Positions 1 through 5,843 of a DNA stretch of 7,173 nt are shown here, piece after piece. The stretch is from NCBI GenBank assembly GCA_048939465.1, contig JBHLPL010000100.1:1-7173 (forward strand), read 5' to 3'. Both the position numbers and the translations under genes were made by a program. The stretch's first letter is position 1. Every line of letters begins with the position of its first letter. The notes under the pieces were generated by a model. It had not been told where the DNA came from, searched no databases, and was given only the letters and a program-made list of their open reading frames with translations. Source of the stretch: Promethearchaeota archaeon (GTDB taxonomy: Archaea; Asgardarchaeota; Odinarchaeia; Odinarchaeales; JBHLKK01).

Positions 1-618
1 CGAAATTTCAACAAGAAAATCGGATCAATTCAACCTAGAGGAGAAGTCGGTCTCTTGTATGAGGTTCTTCGAAAAAAGGGTCTAGAGTTATACTGCGACT
101 TTACGCCGCTTGGATATTTCCATCAAGATTTGGCGATTCTAAAATGGTTTTCTGATCAAGGGGAAAAAATCGATTTTGATTTTTTGATCTTCTACGAATA
201 TGATATGCTTACTACTAAGCCAATCTCGGAACTATATGGAAAATATACTTCCTACGACGCAAGTTTTGCTACTTACCACAAACCATCTCTATCTTGGTAT
301 TGGTACAAAAGGCCTTTAGGATCATTGAAATCCATGCATGAATGGCTGCGAAAATACGGTCAAGACCTTACGCTGTATGCGGGCCTGTTTGCTGGCCACA
401 TGGTATCAAGAAAGGTTCTGACAAAGCTTAAAGAGATGAAACTGCCTTTCGCTTTTTGCGAAATGAGGTGGCCAACAGTTATCACCCAACTTGGCTATTC
501 GTGCAAGAATCTGGATTTTCCAATGATGGGATACGGAAACCCAAAATCGTCTAATATGATTAAAAAGAATGTGAATCTGGGTATATTTCATCCCATCAGA
601 GGAGATGTAGACTTGTAA
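1..618 (+). CDS. Hypothetical protein, 5'-truncated; possible GT-A-like glycosyltransferase or glycan-related protein
   Basis: Frame 1 has no stop from base 1 (RNFNKKIGSIQPRGEVGLLYEVLR...), so the TTG at 55 is probably internal and the gene starts upstream of the window. It ends at TAA 616-618. It contains a hydrophobic strand ending in an acidic motif (FDFLIFYEYDML, ExD-like) and a C-terminal GIFHPI, reminiscent of GT-A-fold proteins. It lies next to a sugar epimerase. The CDS is well supported; the function is tentative. Confidence 0.6.
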   Translation, partial: RNFNKKIGSIQPRGEVGLLYEVLRKKGLELYCDFTPLGYFHQDLAILKWFSDQGEKIDFDFLIFYEYDMLTTKPISELYGKYTSYDASFATYHKPSLSWYWYKRPLGSLKSMHEWLRKYGQDLTLYAGLFAGHMVSRKVLTKLKEMKLPFAFCEMRWPTVITQLGYSCKNLDFPMMGYGNPKSSNMIKKNVNLGIFHPIRGDVDL

Positions 619-1926: not shown

Positions 1927-1968
1927 CCCGTAACCATATAAACGCCTTGTCAATCTATGGTGATTCTA

Positions 1969-2550
1969 ATGAATCCTTGGCTGGTAAATATTCTGGCCTG
2001 TCCAATTTGCAAACATCATCCGTTGAAAGCCTATTTCTACAGTTGGGAGACACCCGATGAGGAAATTAGAGAAGTCTCTAAAAGTGAGATGAATTTCGAT
2101 GTGGACGCTCGCTCATTAGAAGTGCTAGTTCGAGAGTTTGTAGAGGGTATCATTAGTATTACTGCTCTTGATGCTATTAAGGATTTAAGTGGAAATAGAA
2201 TAACTTCTCAGCTTGCAGCAAATGCAAAAGATACTGCCACAAAGCTTGAGAAAACTATTAAGTCCGGGAAAAGTGTAGAAGAAATTCTGAAGGACTCCAA
2301 GCCTGATTTGAATATTATACACTCTTATTTTCATTTGATTTCGGTAGCTGAAGGCCTTCTTCTATGTGATGGCTGTGACAGATGGTACCCAATCGGTAGT
2401 AGCGTTGTGGGCGTTCCTGAGATGTTACCAGATGATCTACGACGTAGGAAATCCGATATGGCTTTCTTGAGAAAGTGGAGAAAGCACATTCCTGAAAAGG
2501 TGTTGAGAGAAGGCAGACCCGTTAATTTGGCTGGCAGTTCTCAGGAATAA
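1969..2550 (+). CDS. trm112: Trm112-family methyltransferase activator (zinc-knuckle) with a long central insertion, 193 aa
   Basis: N-terminal MNPWLVNILACPICKHHPL and C-terminal EGLLLCDGCDRWYPI...VPEMLPDDLR are the two halves of the Trm112 fold. Four Cys ligands have codons at 1999, 2008, 2365 and 2374. The tail (FLRKWRKHIPEKVLREGRPVNL) resembles that of TACK-type archaeal Trm112. ATG 1969 is preferred over 1957 because of GGTGAT at 1959-1964 and because Trm112 proteins usually start about 10 aa before the first Cys. Confidence 0.85.
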   Translation: MNPWLVNILACPICKHHPLKAYFYSWETPDEEIREVSKSEMNFDVDARSLEVLVREFVEGIISITALDAIKDLSGNRITSQLAANAKDTATKLEKTIKSGKSVEEILKDSKPDLNIIHSYFHLISVAEGLLLCDGCDRWYPIGSSVVGVPEMLPDDLRRRKSDMAFLRKWRKHIPEKVLREGRPVNLAGSSQE

Positions 2551-2642: not shown

Positions 2643-2657
2643 CAAAAAGTTTTTTAA
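2643..2657 (+). promoter_or_regulatory. Candidate archaeal BRE/TATA promoter for the AAA-Lon gene
   Basis: CAAAAAG (2643-2649) plus TTTTTTAA (2650-2657), 35 nt upstream of ATG 2693. Confidence 0.55.
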
Positions 2658-2692
2658 GGATCTAATCTTTCAGAACCTCAAAGGTTGAGATT

Positions 2693-5600
2693 ATGGCACT
2701 GATAGGAACAGAGCTCTGGGAGATACTCCTATTCTTGGCTTCCTTGGCAGTTTTCATTTATTTATATGTATTAACCGAGCGTGATCTGCGCGCTAGTCGG
2801 AAAGATTTATGGTCTACTCAGGATTCAACGGCTTTGGCGCTCCGTTATCTTTTCTTTGGCTCCATAAATGCCTTTCTTATATCGGGTCTGCTAGTGTTTT
2901 CTATTTGGATTTTGAATATTCTCTTTGAGGGGCTTGCATCTGCAATCTTGGGAATATCCCTCATTGTCCCATTGATTTCTCTCGTGGCGTCCATAGCCTT
3001 TGGTATCGCCTATGGGATAGCTAAAAGCAAGCATCTGTATGATCTTGCAGATGAAGAGGTCTACGGGTTTAAGCCCTGGTGGGCTCGTCACCGAAGACTG
3101 CGAAAGGCTTTAAGTTTATCTCTATATCTGAGCACCGGAAATTATCGTCGCTGGAGAAATGCTCAATTAACTCCGAGGAAGTTGCGAAGACTCAAACGCG
3201 ATATAGATAGATCTTTTACGAAAACCCGTGAGGATTTGATAGGGAGAGACCAAGAGTTTCAGACTGTAATGTCCAGCATCCTATATCATACGGTCAGAGA
3301 TGAACGTATTCGCGAGGTTCTAAAGAATAATCCACCTTCTAAATTCTTCATTCTTAAAGGGATGACTGGAACCGGCAAAACTCTATTGGCCGAGGTATGT
3401 ATGCGAGAGGGAATGTTAAGAGGCATTAGAAGTCAGACCAACGTTGTTGCGCTCTCGATAAAGGGCTCAGACGTCTTTAACCCATACTATGGTCAATCCG
3501 CAAGAAATCTTAGCTCGATCTTTAGGGCAACCTTGAATACTCCAAGCGTTTTATTCTTTGACGAGTTCGACAGTTTTGCCAAGAGCATAAGAAAGGGCGA
3601 GTCTCACTGGGCTCAATTGGAGGATTTGAGGGTTCAGACTACGTTCATTGAGGGATTAAAGAAAGTCTTAGATACGGAATCCAGGATTGTTGTTATAGCA
3701 GCTACGAATTCTTATGAGTCTGTCCGAGACGACATTAGACGACGTGCCTTTATAATGGATCTTGATCAGAATGTAAGCAGCGAGATGTTGATAGCTGTAT
3801 TGAACGCAGAATTGGAGAAGAACGGATGGACATATCTTGATCCTGAAGAGATAATAGAAGCCCTTGAGCGGGCAGTGAGCGTATATCGTCAGACTCAGTT
3901 AACCCCTTTTGACATTATTGATGCCTGTCAAAAAGTAAGGAATCTCAAGATAGAGCCCATACGGAAGACAATATTCGAATTTGCAGAAAAGCCCGTTAAA
4001 ACAAAATACACAGTCTCCGTTGATGATTTCAGGACCATTGCCAGAGGTTTAAGGGGATACCTTGAAAAAGAAAAGAGTAGCGAGGTTATGACTTCAATCC
4101 TCAGGATAAAACCTGCTGTAACCTACAAAGATGTTGGTGGCCTCTATGGCATAAAGGAGAAGATCTTCAAAAGCATCTCTCTGAGTCTCCGTCCAGATCT
4201 AGCAACAAAACTCGGTTGGATTCCCCCCAAAGGCTTTATTCTGTGGGGGGAGCCAGGTTGCGGTAAAACTCACATATCCAAAGCTATTGCAAAAGAGAAT
4301 AATGCAACATTCTTCTATGCTCCTGCTGCTCAACTCTTAATAAACGCGAAATGGGTTGGTGAGCCTGAAAAGAATGTTCGAGACTTGTTTGACTTTGCGA
4401 GGAAAGAAGCACCCAGCATCATCTTCTTTGATGAATTCGATATCATTGCTGGTAAGCGAAGAGGTGATCCCGTAGGTGATAAAATAACTGCTCAGATATT
4501 AACAGAGTTGGATGGACTACAGCCTTTAGAAAATGTAATTGTTATAGCCGCTACAAACAAGTTGAATACCGTAGACGAAGCCATCATCAGCAGATTCGAG
4601 CCAAATATGATCGAAATTCCGCTTCCCAGAAATGATGAAGAGAGACTCGATATTGTAAACATTCATCTGAACCGATACTTGGCACATCTTCATTCTGACG
4701 TTACAGCAGACAAGATCATCCAAATCCTGAAACGCCATCGTATGGTGTCTCCAAGAGTTGTCGCAGAAATTATCCGAGAGGCTAACCGTTTACGGTCCCA
4801 AGAACTTTTCGCAGTGTGGGAATCCTGCGGTGATGCTAGTGAGGGATTCGTGTCCGAAATCTTCAAAGAGGACCTTGAACGACTTCTTGGCGTATTGGAG
4901 ATTATGAAAAGAGAAAAGAAAAGCTCTATCGATATTAAGGAGCTAGACAGCGAAAACTACAAGGTTCGTCTGTATCACTTTGAGAAAGCAGCTGAACTCT
5001 TAGAGCAAGAGATTGATGTAGAGCTAGTGGAGGCTCAAGAGAGTCTAATACCCGAAAAAGCCGAGATTGGCTTGTCATTTGGTCTTGCAACGGATATTTC
5101 GGGAAGACGGGGAATTATCCTGATTGTTGAGTGTTTGGTAAATAAGAATGGAACTGGTAAGGTTTCAGTAACTGGAGCTGCTAAAACTGTTGTTATTGGT
5201 CCGGCTACGACCGTTGATGATGTAAGCGTCATTGAGAGTGCAACGAATGCTGTTACCTATATACGCCATTATATCAAGGAAAAGCTGGATGTGGACATCT
5301 CCAACTACGATTTTGCCTTCCAAATAATCAGTCCGTTGGAAGGATCTGCTGGCATGGGAGTAAGTGGGCCTAGTCTAGGAATTGCATTTAGCACAGCGGC
5401 AATCTCTGAACTGGCCAAGATAAAGATGAAACCAAATGTGGTTATGACGGGCAAAGTTGATATTAAGGGTAACGTTGGTCCTGTTGGAGGATTAGGATGG
5501 CGAGGAACTGGCAAGTTCTTGGCTGCAATTAGAACCAAGAAAGTCAAGATAAAGAAATTCCTAATTCCTAGATGGAACTATGAGAAATCAAGAGATGAAT

Positions 5601-5725
5601 GGGCAATTCTCAATGAGAAAAAGATTGAAGTTGTCCCTGTCAGTAAACAGGCCGAAGCATGGATCAGTACGTTTGACATGAAGGAAGGCGATATCCTAAG
5701 GCAAATTAGACCTGACATTGAATAA
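2693..5725 (+). CDS. Membrane-anchored tandem AAA+ ATPase (Cdc48/VAT-like D1-D2) fused to a C-terminal Lon (S16) protease domain, 1010 aa
   Basis: Hydrophobic segments at aa ~8-27, ~52-78 and ~81-110. D1: Walker A GMTGTGKT (aa 223-230, nt 3359-3382), pore loop PYYG, Walker B LFFDEFD, IAATN. D2: TYKDVGGL, Walker A GEPGCGKT (aa 519-526, nt 4247-4270), pore loop KWVGEPE, Walker B IFFDEFD, IAATN...IISRF. Lon domain: FGLA...GIILIVEC, VTG...ESATNA, GVSGPSLG (Ser894), VMTGKVDIKGNVGPVGG, GKFLAA (Lys941), FLIPRWN. Confidence 0.92.
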   Translation: MALIGTELWEILLFLASLAVFIYLYVLTERDLRASRKDLWSTQDSTALALRYLFFGSINAFLISGLLVFSIWILNILFEGLASAILGISLIVPLISLVASIAFGIAYGIAKSKHLYDLADEEVYGFKPWWARHRRLRKALSLSLYLSTGNYRRWRNAQLTPRKLRRLKRDIDRSFTKTREDLIGRDQEFQTVMSSILYHTVRDERIREVLKNNPPSKFFILKGMTGTGKTLLAEVCMREGMLRGIRSQTNVVALSIKGSDVFNPYYGQSARNLSSIFRATLNTPSVLFFDEFDSFAKSIRKGESHWAQLEDLRVQTTFIEGLKKVLDTESRIVVIAATNSYESVRDDIRRRAFIMDLDQNVSSEMLIAVLNAELEKNGWTYLDPEEIIEALERAVSVYRQTQLTPFDIIDACQKVRNLKIEPIRKTIFEFAEKPVKTKYTVSVDDFRTIARGLRGYLEKEKSSEVMTSILRIKPAVTYKDVGGLYGIKEKIFKSISLSLRPDLATKLGWIPPKGFILWGEPGCGKTHISKAIAKENNATFFYAPAAQLLINAKWVGEPEKNVRDLFDFARKEAPSIIFFDEFDIIAGKRRGDPVGDKITAQILTELDGLQPLENVIVIAATNKLNTVDEAIISRFEPNMIEIPLPRNDEERLDIVNIHLNRYLAHLHSDVTADKIIQILKRHRMVSPRVVAEIIREANRLRSQELFAVWESCGDASEGFVSEIFKEDLERLLGVLEIMKREKKSSIDIKELDSENYKVRLYHFEKAAELLEQEIDVELVEAQESLIPEKAEIGLSFGLATDISGRRGIILIVECLVNKNGTGKVSVTGAAKTVVIGPATTVDDVSVIESATNAVTYIRHYIKEKLDVDISNYDFAFQIISPLEGSAGMGVSGPSLGIAFSTAAISELAKIKMKPNVVMTGKVDIKGNVGPVGGLGWRGTGKFLAAIRTKKVKIKKFLIPRWNYEKSRDEWAILNEKKIEVVPVSKQAEAWISTFDMKEGDILRQIRPDIE

Positions 5726-5748
5726 GCACCCAAAACTTCCTAGGCTAG

Positions 5749-5762
5749 TTCATTTTTCCTTT
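5749..5762 (+). terminator. Possible T-rich terminator after the AAA-Lon gene
   Basis: Pyrimidine/T-rich tract TTCATTTTTCCTTT about 25 nt after the stop codon at 5725. Confidence 0.3.
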
Positions 5763-5843
5763 ACTGTATTCCCGAATCTATAATCCTATATTTGATGAAG
5801 ACATCATTTCTCGAAGTTTTCAGTCTCGCAGGTCAATTTCCTC

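What the first reader, a model, noticed from the sequence alone, without database searches (positions are those of the whole stretch)
2693..5725. Single-chain membrane-anchored Cdc48-Lon chimera: TM3 + AAA-D1 + AAA-D2 + Lon protease
Seen in sequence: one uninterrupted 1010-aa ORF carries an N-terminal membrane bundle, two complete AAA+ modules and a Lon S16 proteolytic domain with the Ser and Lys codons intact (AGT 5372, AAG 5513). Established knowledge: LonA has an N-domain, one HCLR-clade AAA and the protease. Archaeal LonB has one AAA with TM helices inserted inside it. FtsH has N-terminal TMs, one classic AAA and a Zn protease. Cdc48/VAT has an N-domain and two AAAs, and uses the separate 20S proteasome. 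This protein combines FtsH-like topology, a Cdc48-like double-ring motor and a Lon chamber. Inference: a hexameric, proteasome-independent machine that extracts and degrades membrane or membrane-proximal proteins, roughly an ERAD-like dislocase and protease in one chain. I know of no characterised protein with this architecture.
Basis: partly seen in the sequence, partly recalled or inferred. Interest (0 to 1): 0.92.

Follow-up and report, generated by a model that had tools for sequence, protein, structure and literature searches.

The report
Membrane-anchored double-AAA Lon protease
This archaeal gene encodes one protein that joins a three-helix membrane anchor, two Cdc48-type ATPase motors and a Lon-type protease; it belongs to a widespread, unnamed and unstudied family that probably degrades proteins at the membrane in archaea lacking the usual membrane protease LonB.

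Summary
ORF 2693-5725 (+) encodes 1010 aa: three N-terminal hydrophobic helices, two classic AAA modules with intact Walker A/B motifs, and a Lon S16 domain with Ser894 (AGT 5372) and Lys941 (AAG 5513).

It is not an assembly chimera. Contigs from separate metagenome studies bridge all three domain junctions, and about 1012-aa homologues occur in closed Odinarchaeia-like genomes.

The tandem motor is colinear with the genome's own Cdc48 (32% identity). The protease is a distinct Lon type: Pro precedes the Ser as in LonA, and 46 rather than 42 residues separate Ser and Lys.

The family is common but patchy in Thermoproteota (54 of 401 sampled genomes). There the anchor is usually a separate, overlapping upstream gene. 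The single-chain form is one monophyletic fusion confined to an Odinarchaeia-like order. No genome in that order, and none of the 401 Thermoproteota, has canonical LonB.

Most likely it is a membrane-tethered, ATP-driven, processive protease analogous to FtsH and LonB. Activity, hexamer formation and substrates are untested.

I found no description in the searchable literature, and databases call it only "AAA family ATPase". This scan had already flagged the same family on other DNA at least six times.

The parts
2693..5725 (+). Whole gene: 1010-aa membrane-anchored AAA-AAA-Lon protease (stop codon 5723-5725)
   Evidence: The ATG start is supported because TM1 aligns with the Odinarchaeia homologues from residue 1.
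2650..2689 (+). Possible archaeal TATA-like T/A run (2650-2657) and Shine-Dalgarno-like GGTTGAG (2683-2689) ahead of the ATG
   Evidence: Read directly from the sequence. Not tested. Low confidence.
2714..2782 (+). TM helix 1 (about residues 8-30), N-terminus outside
   Evidence: Hydropathy and AF2 helix 8-35.
2783..2845 (+). Cytoplasmic loop with a conserved R/K..W...DS.A motif shared with the separate anchor proteins
   Evidence: BLASTP alignments to the Bathyarchaeia and Nezhaarchaeota anchors. Five K/R residues fit the positive-inside rule.
2846..2923 (+). TM helix 2 (about residues 52-77)
2954..3028 (+). TM helix 3 (about residues 88-112)
3029..3292 (+). Fusion joint (about residues 122/123, ...YDLADEE | VYGFKPWW...) followed by a basic helical linker with invariant W129, W130 and W154. 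Split-gene homologues start here.
3293..4102 (+). AAA module D1 (about residues 201-470): Walker A 3359-3382, pore loop PYYG 3482-3493, Walker B 3548-3565, sensor-1 N339, Arg cluster R349-R351
4103..5047 (+). AAA module D2 with an extended helical lid and linker (about residues 471-785): Walker A 4247-4270, pore loop KWVG 4349-4360, Walker B 4418-4435, sensor-1 N622, a single Arg finger R634, invariant S686-P687-R688
5048..5722 (+). Lon S16 proteolytic domain (residues 786-1010). No HbYX tail.
5372..5374 (+). Catalytic Ser894 codon AGT, preceded by Pro893 (LonA-type centre, GPSLG)
   Evidence: The criterion comes from PMC9569914.
5513..5515 (+). Catalytic Lys941 codon AAG. 46 residues lie between Ser and Lys, because of a 4-residue insert before the Lys relative to LonB.

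Best explanation
The gene encodes a membrane-tethered, ATP-dependent, self-compartmentalised protease.

Proposed mechanism:
1. Three N-terminal helices (N-out, C-in) hold the protein on the cytoplasmic face of the membrane.
2. A basic helical linker leads to two stacked classic-AAA rings, D1 and D2, which derive from a Cdc48/VAT-type tandem.
3. By analogy with Cdc48, FtsH and Lon, six subunits should form a stack. Substrates would enter at the membrane-facing D1 pore.
4. Substrates would be pulled through both rings by the aromatic pore loops (PYYG in D1, KWVG in D2).
5. They would be delivered directly into a Lon Ser894-Lys941 chamber at the distal end.

The most likely role is quality control and turnover of membrane or membrane-proximal proteins. 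In bacteria that job belongs to FtsH and in many archaea to LonB, which this lineage lacks.

Shown here: the domain composition and order, conservation of all catalytic motifs, homology of the anchor to a separately encoded partner, and the phyletic pattern.

Inferred: hexamer formation, ATP-coupled proteolysis, direction of threading, and substrate class.
For: Domains and motifs:
- Pfam and NCBIfam find two AAA modules plus Lon_C.
- In a 74-sequence family alignment spanning 36-100% identity, K229, D290/E291, R349-351, D580/E581, N622, R634, S894, K941 and the pore-loop residues Y266, G267 and G556 are invariant. K525 and the D1 sensor-1 N339 are conserved in at least 90% of the sequences.

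Motor origin:
- Residues 178-675 align colinearly with residues 198-669 of the genome's own Cdc48 (32% identity, E 1e-54).
- The best solved relatives are VAT and p97 for both D1 and D2.

Protease:
- The closest solved protease domains are those of A. fulgidus and T. onnurineus LonB, and the Ser and Lys align.

Anchor:
- Residues 1-122 match the separate, overlapping upstream 3-TM protein of Bathyarchaeia (36% identity, E 1e-14) and of Nezhaarchaeota (31%, E 3e-12).
- That upstream gene is present in 7 of 7 loci of the close subfamily.
- The fusion therefore acts as a Rosetta-stone link between anchor and motor.

Phyletic pattern:
- Canonical LonB (above the TIGR00764 cut-off) was found in 0 of the 6 genomes checked in the window's own order (G000, G298, G300-G303), including one closed 98%-complete genome.
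- LonB was also found in 0 of 401 sampled Thermoproteota, against 55 of 201 Asgard genomes overall.
- The family is present in 7 of 7 genomes of the own order and in 54 of 401 Thermoproteota.

Other:
- The gene is real DNA, not a chimera.
- The C-terminus has no HbYX motif, so docking on the proteasome is not expected.
Against: - There are no biochemical or expression data. No RNA run holding the gene was listed.
- The AF2 model has pTM 0.49, so the relative placement of the domains is not reliable.
- D2 has only one Arg at the Arg-finger position and a 2-residue deletion relative to Cdc48. Its hydrolysis mechanism may therefore differ.
- The complementarity with LonB is largely a property of whole phyla and is not a set of independent events. 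87% of sampled Thermoproteota have neither protein, and one Asgard genome (G397, 9% contamination) has both.
- A more distant subfamily has no adjacent membrane gene in 4 of 7 loci, so membrane anchoring may not be universal in the family.
Confidence: 0.72

Rival explanations
1. It is a specialised regulatory or defence-type protease. It would act on one or a few specific targets, for example a membrane-bound regulator or, as in AAA-plus-protease anti-phage systems, an infection trigger. It would not be a general quality-control machine.
For: - The distribution is patchy: about 13% of sampled Thermoproteota and one order of Asgard archaea.
- Anchors in some lineages carry a signal peptide plus an extracellular domain of about 150 aa, which could sense something outside the cell.
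- D2 matches the anti-phage AAA ATPase IetA/IteA (PADLOC E 1e-41, NCBIfam E 2e-36).
Against: - The IetA matches are weaker than those to Cdc48 and PAN (E about 1e-60), so they reflect general AAA similarity.
- No defence genes lie nearby, and the neighbours differ at every locus examined.
- Sequence conservation is very high for a defence gene: 55-66% identity over about 900 aa between an Asgard archaeon and Thermoproteota.
- Only one copy of the gene was found in each genome searched.
- The fused form in this window has no extracellular domain.
Confidence: 0.15
2. It is mainly an unfoldase or dislocase. The Lon domain would serve as an oligomerisation platform or would only process the protein itself or its anchor, and bulk degradation would be left to the 20S proteasome.
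For: - The genome keeps a complete proteasome set: five Pfam Proteasome (PF00227) family genes, two Cdc48 and PAN-like ATPases.
- ATPase-dead or non-peptidase Lon homologues are known (PMC9569914).
Against: - Ser894, Lys941 and the surrounding G-P-S-x-G and G-x-G-K motifs are invariant across the family.
- The C-terminus is the Lon domain and has no HbYX tail to dock on a proteasome.
- The domain order AAA then protease is that of all known fused AAA+ proteases.
Confidence: 0.06
3. It is an assembly or gene-calling artefact that joins a membrane protein gene to an AAA-Lon gene.
For: - In most relatives the two parts are separate, overlapping genes.
- The window is a short 7.2-kb metagenomic contig.
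Against: - Contigs from different studies run uninterrupted across the joint near position 3060 and across the other junctions.
- The frame is continuous.
- Six independent fused homologues, one on a 1.4-Mb contig, form one well-supported clade.
Confidence: 0.01

Closest known systems
Archaeal LonB (MEROPS S16.005; e.g. Archaeoglobus fulgidus 1Z0E, Thermococcus onnurineus 3K1J)
   Same: - Both are membrane-bound, single-chain ATP-dependent Lon-type proteases of archaea.
- Its protease domain is the best solved match to the protease domain here (E 5e-12).
- Both use a Ser-Lys dyad.
   Different: LonB:
- One HCLR-clade AAA+ module.
- TM helices inserted between Walker A and Walker B.
- Asp before the catalytic Ser.
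- 42 residues between Ser and Lys (PMC9569914).

This protein:
- Two classic-clade AAA modules.
- N-terminal TM helices.
- Pro before the Ser.
- 46 residues between Ser and Lys.
- TIGR00764 score of 67 bits against a cut-off of 516.6.
Cdc48 / VAT / p97 (type II classic AAA unfoldases)
   Same: - The D1-D2 tandem is colinear: 32% identity to the genome's own Cdc48, and the best solved matches are VAT and p97.
- The aromatic pore loops in both rings resemble those of VAT. That comparison is from my memory of the VAT literature, not from a tool.
   Different: - There is no N-terminal double-psi-barrel domain.
- There is no HbYX tail.
- D2 has a single Arg finger.
- The D2 lid is extended.
- A covalent protease replaces delivery to a separate 20S proteasome.
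- The TIGR01243 score is 206.6 bits against a cut-off of 802.65.
FtsH (bacterial and organellar membrane AAA protease)
   Same: - The topology and logic are the same: N-terminal TM anchor, then classic-clade AAA, then a C-terminal protease chamber.
- The presumed job, degradation of membrane proteins, is the same.
   Different: - FtsH has one AAA ring and an M41 zinc metalloprotease.
- FtsH has two TM helices flanking a periplasmic domain.
- The TIGR01241 score is 145.5 bits against a cut-off of 600.
LonA and the proposed LonBA subfamily (Bacillus subtilis LonBA, PMC9569914)
   Same: - The catalytic centre is A-type, with Pro before the Ser (GPS).
- LonBA also has its membrane segment at the N-terminus.
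   Different: - LonA and LonBA each have a single HCLR-clade AAA+ module and a 42-residue Ser-Lys spacing.
- LonA has the LON N-domain.
- The TIGR00763 score is 75.4 bits against a cut-off of 608.
MBA, membrane-bound AAA proteins of Sulfolobus (Serek-Heuberger et al. 2009, pmid 19143614, cited in PMC3493965)
   Same: As I recall the paper, these are double-AAA archaeal proteins with an N-terminal TM segment in place of an N-domain.
   Different: - As I recall, they have no protease domain.
- The paper is not held in the library, and I could not obtain Sulfolobus MBA sequences to compare, so any relationship is untested.

Membership tests
Lon protease family (MEROPS S16) | Lon_C proteolytic domain recognised above the curated threshold | tested here: met
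   PF05362 scores 61.2 bits against a cut-off of 21.1, over residues 786-985.
Lon protease family (MEROPS S16) | Catalytic Ser-Lys dyad present | tested here: met
   Ser894 and Lys941 align with Ser509 and Lys552 of AfLonB. Both are invariant in 74 sequences.
Lon protease family (MEROPS S16) | Exactly 42 residues between the catalytic Ser and Lys (stated for LonA and LonB in PMC9569914) | tested here: not met
   There are 46 residues between them. A 4-residue insert lies before the Lys.
Lon protease family (MEROPS S16) | A single HCLR-clade AAA+ module directly upstream of the protease domain | tested here: not met
   Two classic-clade AAA (PF00004) modules are present, and their best matches are Cdc48, VAT and PAN.
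LonB (archaeal, S16.005) | Membrane anchor inserted inside the AAA module between Walker A and Walker B | tested here: not met
   All hydrophobic helices lie within residues 1-112, ahead of both AAA modules.
LonB (archaeal, S16.005) | Asp before the catalytic Ser, and a score above the TIGR00764 cut-off | tested here: not met
   Pro893 precedes the Ser. The score is 67.4 bits against a cut-off of 516.6.
LonA | LON N-terminal substrate-binding domain, and a score above the TIGR00763 cut-off | tested here: not met
   Pfam finds no LON domain. The score is 75.4 bits against a cut-off of 608. Pro before the Ser is the only LonA-like trait.
Cdc48 / VAT / p97 | Tandem classic AAA modules D1 and D2 in colinear order | tested here: met
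   The CDC48 model aligns in one stretch over residues 178-785. BLASTP against the genome's own Cdc48 is colinear. Foldseek aligns about 620 columns to p97.
Cdc48 / VAT / p97 | N-terminal double-psi-barrel and beta-clam N-domain, and a score above the TIGR01243 cut-off | tested here: not met
   Pfam finds no CDC48_N or CDC48_2 domain. The score is 206.6 bits against a cut-off of 802.65.
Cdc48 / VAT / p97 | C-terminal HbYX motif for docking on the proteasome (archaeal members, PMC3493965) | tested here: not met
   The C-terminus is the Lon domain and ends ...RPDIE.
FtsH | M41 zinc metalloprotease domain after a single AAA module | tested here: not met
   Pfam finds no Peptidase_M41 domain. TIGR01241 scores 145.5 bits against a cut-off of 600.
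Unnamed AAA-AAA-Lon family of Thermoproteota and Odinarchaeia (as defined here) | An N-terminal WW/basic segment, then D1, then D2 with its extended lid, then a GPS-type Lon domain with the 46-residue Ser-Lys spacing | tested here: met
   Identity to named members is 55-89% over 87-100% of the length. The invariant columns are shared.
Unnamed AAA-AAA-Lon family of Thermoproteota and Odinarchaeia (as defined here) | Association with a 3-TM anchor, either fused or encoded by an overlapping upstream gene | tested here: met
   The anchor is fused in this window. It is homologous to the separate anchors. A separate anchor gene is present in 7 of 7 loci of the close subfamily.

The most novel reading that the evidence does not exclude
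This family would be a third, so far unrecognised class of archaeal energy-dependent protease, alongside the proteasome with its ATPases and LonB. It would be a double-ring, Cdc48-derived motor welded to its own Lon chamber and held at the membrane by a dedicated 3-TM subunit. It would do the membrane-protein extraction and degradation job of FtsH or LonB in Thermoproteota and Odinarchaeia, which have neither. The fused Odinarchaeia form would be the natural single-chain version best suited to structural and biochemical study.
Probability: 0.5. Interest if true: 0.72.

Novelty: new variant of a known kind. Interest (0 to 1): 0.6.

Why it matters
Archaea lack FtsH, and canonical LonB was not found in any of 401 sampled Thermoproteota genomes or in this Odinarchaeia-like order. 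How those lineages remove damaged membrane proteins is therefore unclear. This family is a concrete, testable candidate.

Mechanistically, it would be the first AAA+ protease in which a type II (double-ring) classic-AAA unfoldase is covalently joined to its peptidase. It would also be a natural experiment on how a Cdc48-type motor hands substrate to a chamber without docking motifs.

The Lon domain fits none of the current Lon subfamilies A, B, C or BA. It combines an A-type Ser environment with a 46-residue Ser-Lys spacing, so the Lon classification would need extending.

The gene has no bearing on eukaryogenesis. It is missing from nearly all other Asgard lineages sampled, and in the tree it sits inside Thermoproteota diversity.

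Tried and rejected
- **Scan of genome contigs.** The search for related loci with the full-length alignment chose generic AAA motifs as patterns. It returned only Cdc48, PAN and FtsH-type loci, so it was useless for distribution. I used the genome search with a C-terminal profile instead.
- **Complex prediction.** I ran complex prediction on the Bathyarchaeia anchor with the first 190 residues of its large subunit. The result was no verdict (score 0.00, low pLDDT). This is not evidence either way.
- **Expression.** No RNA holder was listed among the sequencing runs, so nothing can be said about expression.
- **Literature.** None describes a TM or AAA-AAA-Lon_C protein. Serek-Heuberger 2009 (MBA proteins) and the Barthelme and Sauer Cdc48 review are not held. 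MEROPS, InterPro and arCOG identifiers could not be consulted.
- **Comparison with Sulfolobales MBA proteins.** The two genomes available were fragmented and gave only single-AAA hits. I abandoned this.
- **Defence-system reading.** PADLOC gave only generic AAA matches.
- **Recent horizontal transfer by composition.** GC is 0.42-0.44 across the gene and 0.34-0.43 in the flanks. I saw no compositional sign of recent transfer.
- **Conserved operon partners.** Apart from the anchor, the neighbours differ at every locus examined.
Full report
**1. The observation**

The window holds one uninterrupted ORF at 2693-5725 on the + strand, 1010 aa.

- Pfam finds two AAA (PF00004) stretches and a Lon_C domain at residues 786-985, scoring 61.2 bits against a cut-off of 21.1.
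- Walker A motifs lie at residues 223 and 519. Walker B motifs end in D290-E291 and D580-E581.
- A hydropathy scan gives hydrophobic stretches at about 6-30 and 52-110. The AlphaFold2 model (mean pLDDT 81.6, pTM 0.49) resolves three helices at 8-35, 42-77 and 91-112.
- Lys and Arg are concentrated in loop 28-51 and after residue 112. None occur in residues 1-7 or 78-90. The topology is therefore N-out, C-in, with the ATPases in the cytoplasm. This follows from the positive-inside rule applied to the sequence.

**2. It is not an artefact**

Logan contigs of metagenomes from different studies (mangrove and sediment) cover the gene without joints or loose ends. One contig spans 2500-5052 and another spans 4294-5800, so all three domain junctions are bridged. 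Fused homologues of 1012-1015 aa occur on independent contigs, including a 1.4-Mb one and closed genomes.

**3. The parts**

*Motor.*
- Residues 178-675 align colinearly with residues 198-669 (D1 plus D2) of one of the genome's own two Cdc48 proteins, at 32% identity and E 1e-54.
- The CDC48 model TIGR01243 aligns in one stretch over residues 178-785. It scores only 206.6 bits against a cut-off of 802.65.
- The best solved relatives of both modules are VAT and p97: E 4e-24 for D1 and 3e-74 for D2. Foldseek aligns about 620 columns of the model to p97/Cdc48.
- There is no Cdc48 N-domain and no HbYX tail.
- The pore loops are aromatic in both rings: PYYG in D1 and KWVG in D2.
- D1 keeps an RRR cluster at the Arg-finger position. 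D2 has a two-residue deletion there and a single invariant Arg, R634.

*Protease.*
- The closest solved domains are the LonB protease domains of A. fulgidus (E 5e-12) and T. onnurineus. Ser894 and Lys941 align with the catalytic pair.
- By the criteria of the Lon specialists (PMC9569914), LonA has Pro and LonB has Asp before the Ser, and both have exactly 42 residues between Ser and Lys.
- Here the Ser follows Pro893, which is A-type, and 46 residues separate Ser and Lys. A four-residue insert before the Lys, conserved in the close relatives, accounts for the difference.
- The domain therefore fits none of subfamilies A, B, C or the proposed BA. All of those carry a single HCLR-clade AAA+ module.

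*Conservation.* In 74 family members at 36-100% identity, the Walker, Arg-finger, pore-loop and Ser/Lys residues are invariant, apart from K525 and the D1 sensor-1 Asn, which are conserved in at least 90% of the sequences. So are W129, W130 and an S-P-R triplet at 686-688. This is the pattern of an active enzyme, not a decayed one.

**4. The family and the fusion**

More than 3000 database proteins match, and the close ones are called only "AAA family ATPase" or "SpoVK/Ycf46/Vps4 family".

Relatives from Bathyarchaeia, Nezhaarchaeota, Methanomethylicia (Verstraetearchaeota) and Sulfolobales or Thermoprotei MAGs are about 900-930 aa. They begin exactly at the conserved WW segment, which is residue 127 here.

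Immediately upstream of them, overlapping by 26 or 53 nt, lies a gene for a membrane protein of 124-298 aa.
- The Bathyarchaeia version (124 aa, three TM helices) is 36% identical to residues 18-122 of the window's protein (E 1e-14).
- The Nezhaarchaeota version adds a signal peptide and an outside domain of about 150 aa (31% identity, E 3e-12).
- This anchor gene was present in 7 of 7 loci of the close subfamily that I fetched.
- In a more distant subfamily, 3 of 7 loci had a different membrane protein upstream and 4 of 7 had none. An earlier scan note's statement that the protein is "always" paired is therefore too strong.

None of the other roughly 22 full-length 50%-identity cluster representatives that I checked has N-terminal TM helices.

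In a maximum-likelihood tree the six fused proteins form one clade (SH-aLRT 100). When rooted on the distant soil-Bathyarchaeota group, that clade sits inside the Thermoproteota sequences, next to a Bathyarchaeia-containing group with weak support (80). This fits a single fusion event, probably after transfer from a Thermoproteota donor. The root and the direction of transfer are not established.

**5. Distribution**

- In 400 Asgard genomes the family occurs only in the window's own genus (3 of 3), its sister family (4 of 4; small 1.3-1.4 Mb genomes with 1014-aa frames, Odinarchaeia-like) and one other genome.
- In a sample of 401 Thermoproteota genomes, 54 have it, almost all with frames of about 900-940 aa.
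- The ESM Atlas shows two archaeal AAA-plus-Lon_C clusters and, unexpectedly, a bacterial 1139-aa cluster.

**6. Genomic setting**

The genome is 1.96 Mb and 91% complete. It also encodes two true Cdc48 proteins, three single-AAA proteins, five Pfam Proteasome (PF00227) family genes and one other Lon-like protein. That other protein is 814 aa, has a degenerate Walker A (GTGR) and a B-type Ser, and so resembles LonC.

Canonical LonB (above the TIGR00764 cut-off) was not found:
- in the window's genome;
- in the five other genomes checked in its order, including one closed genome that is 98% complete;
- in any of the 401 sampled Thermoproteota.

It is present in 55 of 201 Asgard genomes. The pattern fits the idea that this family does the membrane-protease job where LonB is missing. 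It is weak evidence, because it follows large clades and because most Thermoproteota have neither protein.

The window neighbours are an NAD-dependent sugar epimerase/dehydratase, a Trm112-like protein and a sulfatase. They are not conserved at other loci.

**7. Mechanism**

The order anchor, linker, D1, D2, protease matches that of FtsH (anchor, AAA, protease) with a second ring added. The most economical reading has four elements:
- a hexamer on the cytoplasmic face of the membrane;
- substrate entry at the membrane-facing D1 pore;
- threading through both rings;
- cleavage in the Lon chamber.

The hexamer, the threading direction and the substrates are inferences from the behaviour of Cdc48/VAT, FtsH and Lon. 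None was tested here. I put 0.72 on "membrane-tethered ATP-dependent processive protease" and about 0.5 on the narrower claim that it substitutes for LonB in membrane-protein quality control.

The rivals are a dedicated regulatory or defence protease (0.15), an unfoldase with a non-degradative Lon domain (0.06) and an artefact (0.01).

**8. Novelty**

I found no description of this architecture in the searchable literature.
- A 2008 survey of Lon_C architectures does not list it (PMC2605481).
- The 2012 census of archaeal AAA groups does not list it (PMC3493965).
- The 2022 Lon classification does not list it (PMC9569914).
- No solved structure covers it.

MEROPS, InterPro and arCOG could not be consulted, and two relevant subscription papers are not held, so an existing database identifier cannot be excluded.

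This scan had already met the family on other DNA at least six times, with the same conclusions. I re-derived the main points independently and added six things:
- the read-level check;
- the Lon-subfamily criteria;
- the LonB complementarity;
- the monophyly of the fused form;
- its restriction to one Asgard order;
- the exception to anchor pairing.

I class it as a new variant of a known kind: an AAA+ protease built from known modules in an undescribed combination. It is interesting to the AAA+/proteostasis field and readily testable, but it is not a new principle.

Noticed in passing
window 1957-2550 (+): This is a Trm112-like protein of 197 aa. The two halves of its zinc ribbon (CPIC near residue 15, CDGC near residue 137) are separated by an inserted segment of about 100 residues. 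The Pfam Trm112p model of 40 positions is stretched over residues 9-146.
   Followed up: no
window 1-618 (+): This 5'-truncated ORF (205 aa shown) has no Pfam or NCBIfam match. Its function is unknown.
   Followed up: no
G000 contig C134, locus L020:544-2988: This is the genome's second Lon-like gene (814 aa). It has a degenerate Walker A (GESGTGRMT, no Lys), a LonB-type GDSAS Ser motif and a long helical insertion, so it resembles the ATPase-dead LonC type. Similar frames of about 800-830 aa occur in many other Asgard genomes.
   Followed up: partly
window 4748-4756 (residues 686-688): An invariant S-P-R triplet lies in the helical lid of D2, where by my reading classic AAA proteins have G-A-D. 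The Arg could act as a sensor-2-like residue that compensates for the missing second Arg finger of D2. I did not check the position against the Cdc48 alignment.
   Followed up: no
ESM Atlas cluster: A bacterial cluster (61 members, about 1139 aa, Thermodesulfobacteriota where known) also combines AAA with Lon_C. A related architecture may therefore exist outside archaea.
   Followed up: no
G397:C16:56327-57118 and G397:C17:9951-11753: One Asgard genome from a different family (91% complete, 9% contamination) carries both a 939-aa member of this family (41% identity) and a canonical LonB. It is either an exception to the complementarity or contamination.
   Followed up: no
L124-L127 (four related Thermoproteota genomes): Members of a more distant subfamily (920 aa, N-terminus ...EEEWWYKKP...) have no membrane-protein gene directly upstream. 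L122, L123 and L128 have a different upstream membrane protein that ends in a TM helix.
   Followed up: partly
L001:3205-4026 and L003:3115-3999: In Nezhaarchaeota and in the soil Bathyarchaeota-type group, the anchor carries a signal peptide and an extracellular domain of about 150 aa ahead of the three TM helices. The fused form in this window lacks that domain. Its fold and role are unknown.
   Followed up: no
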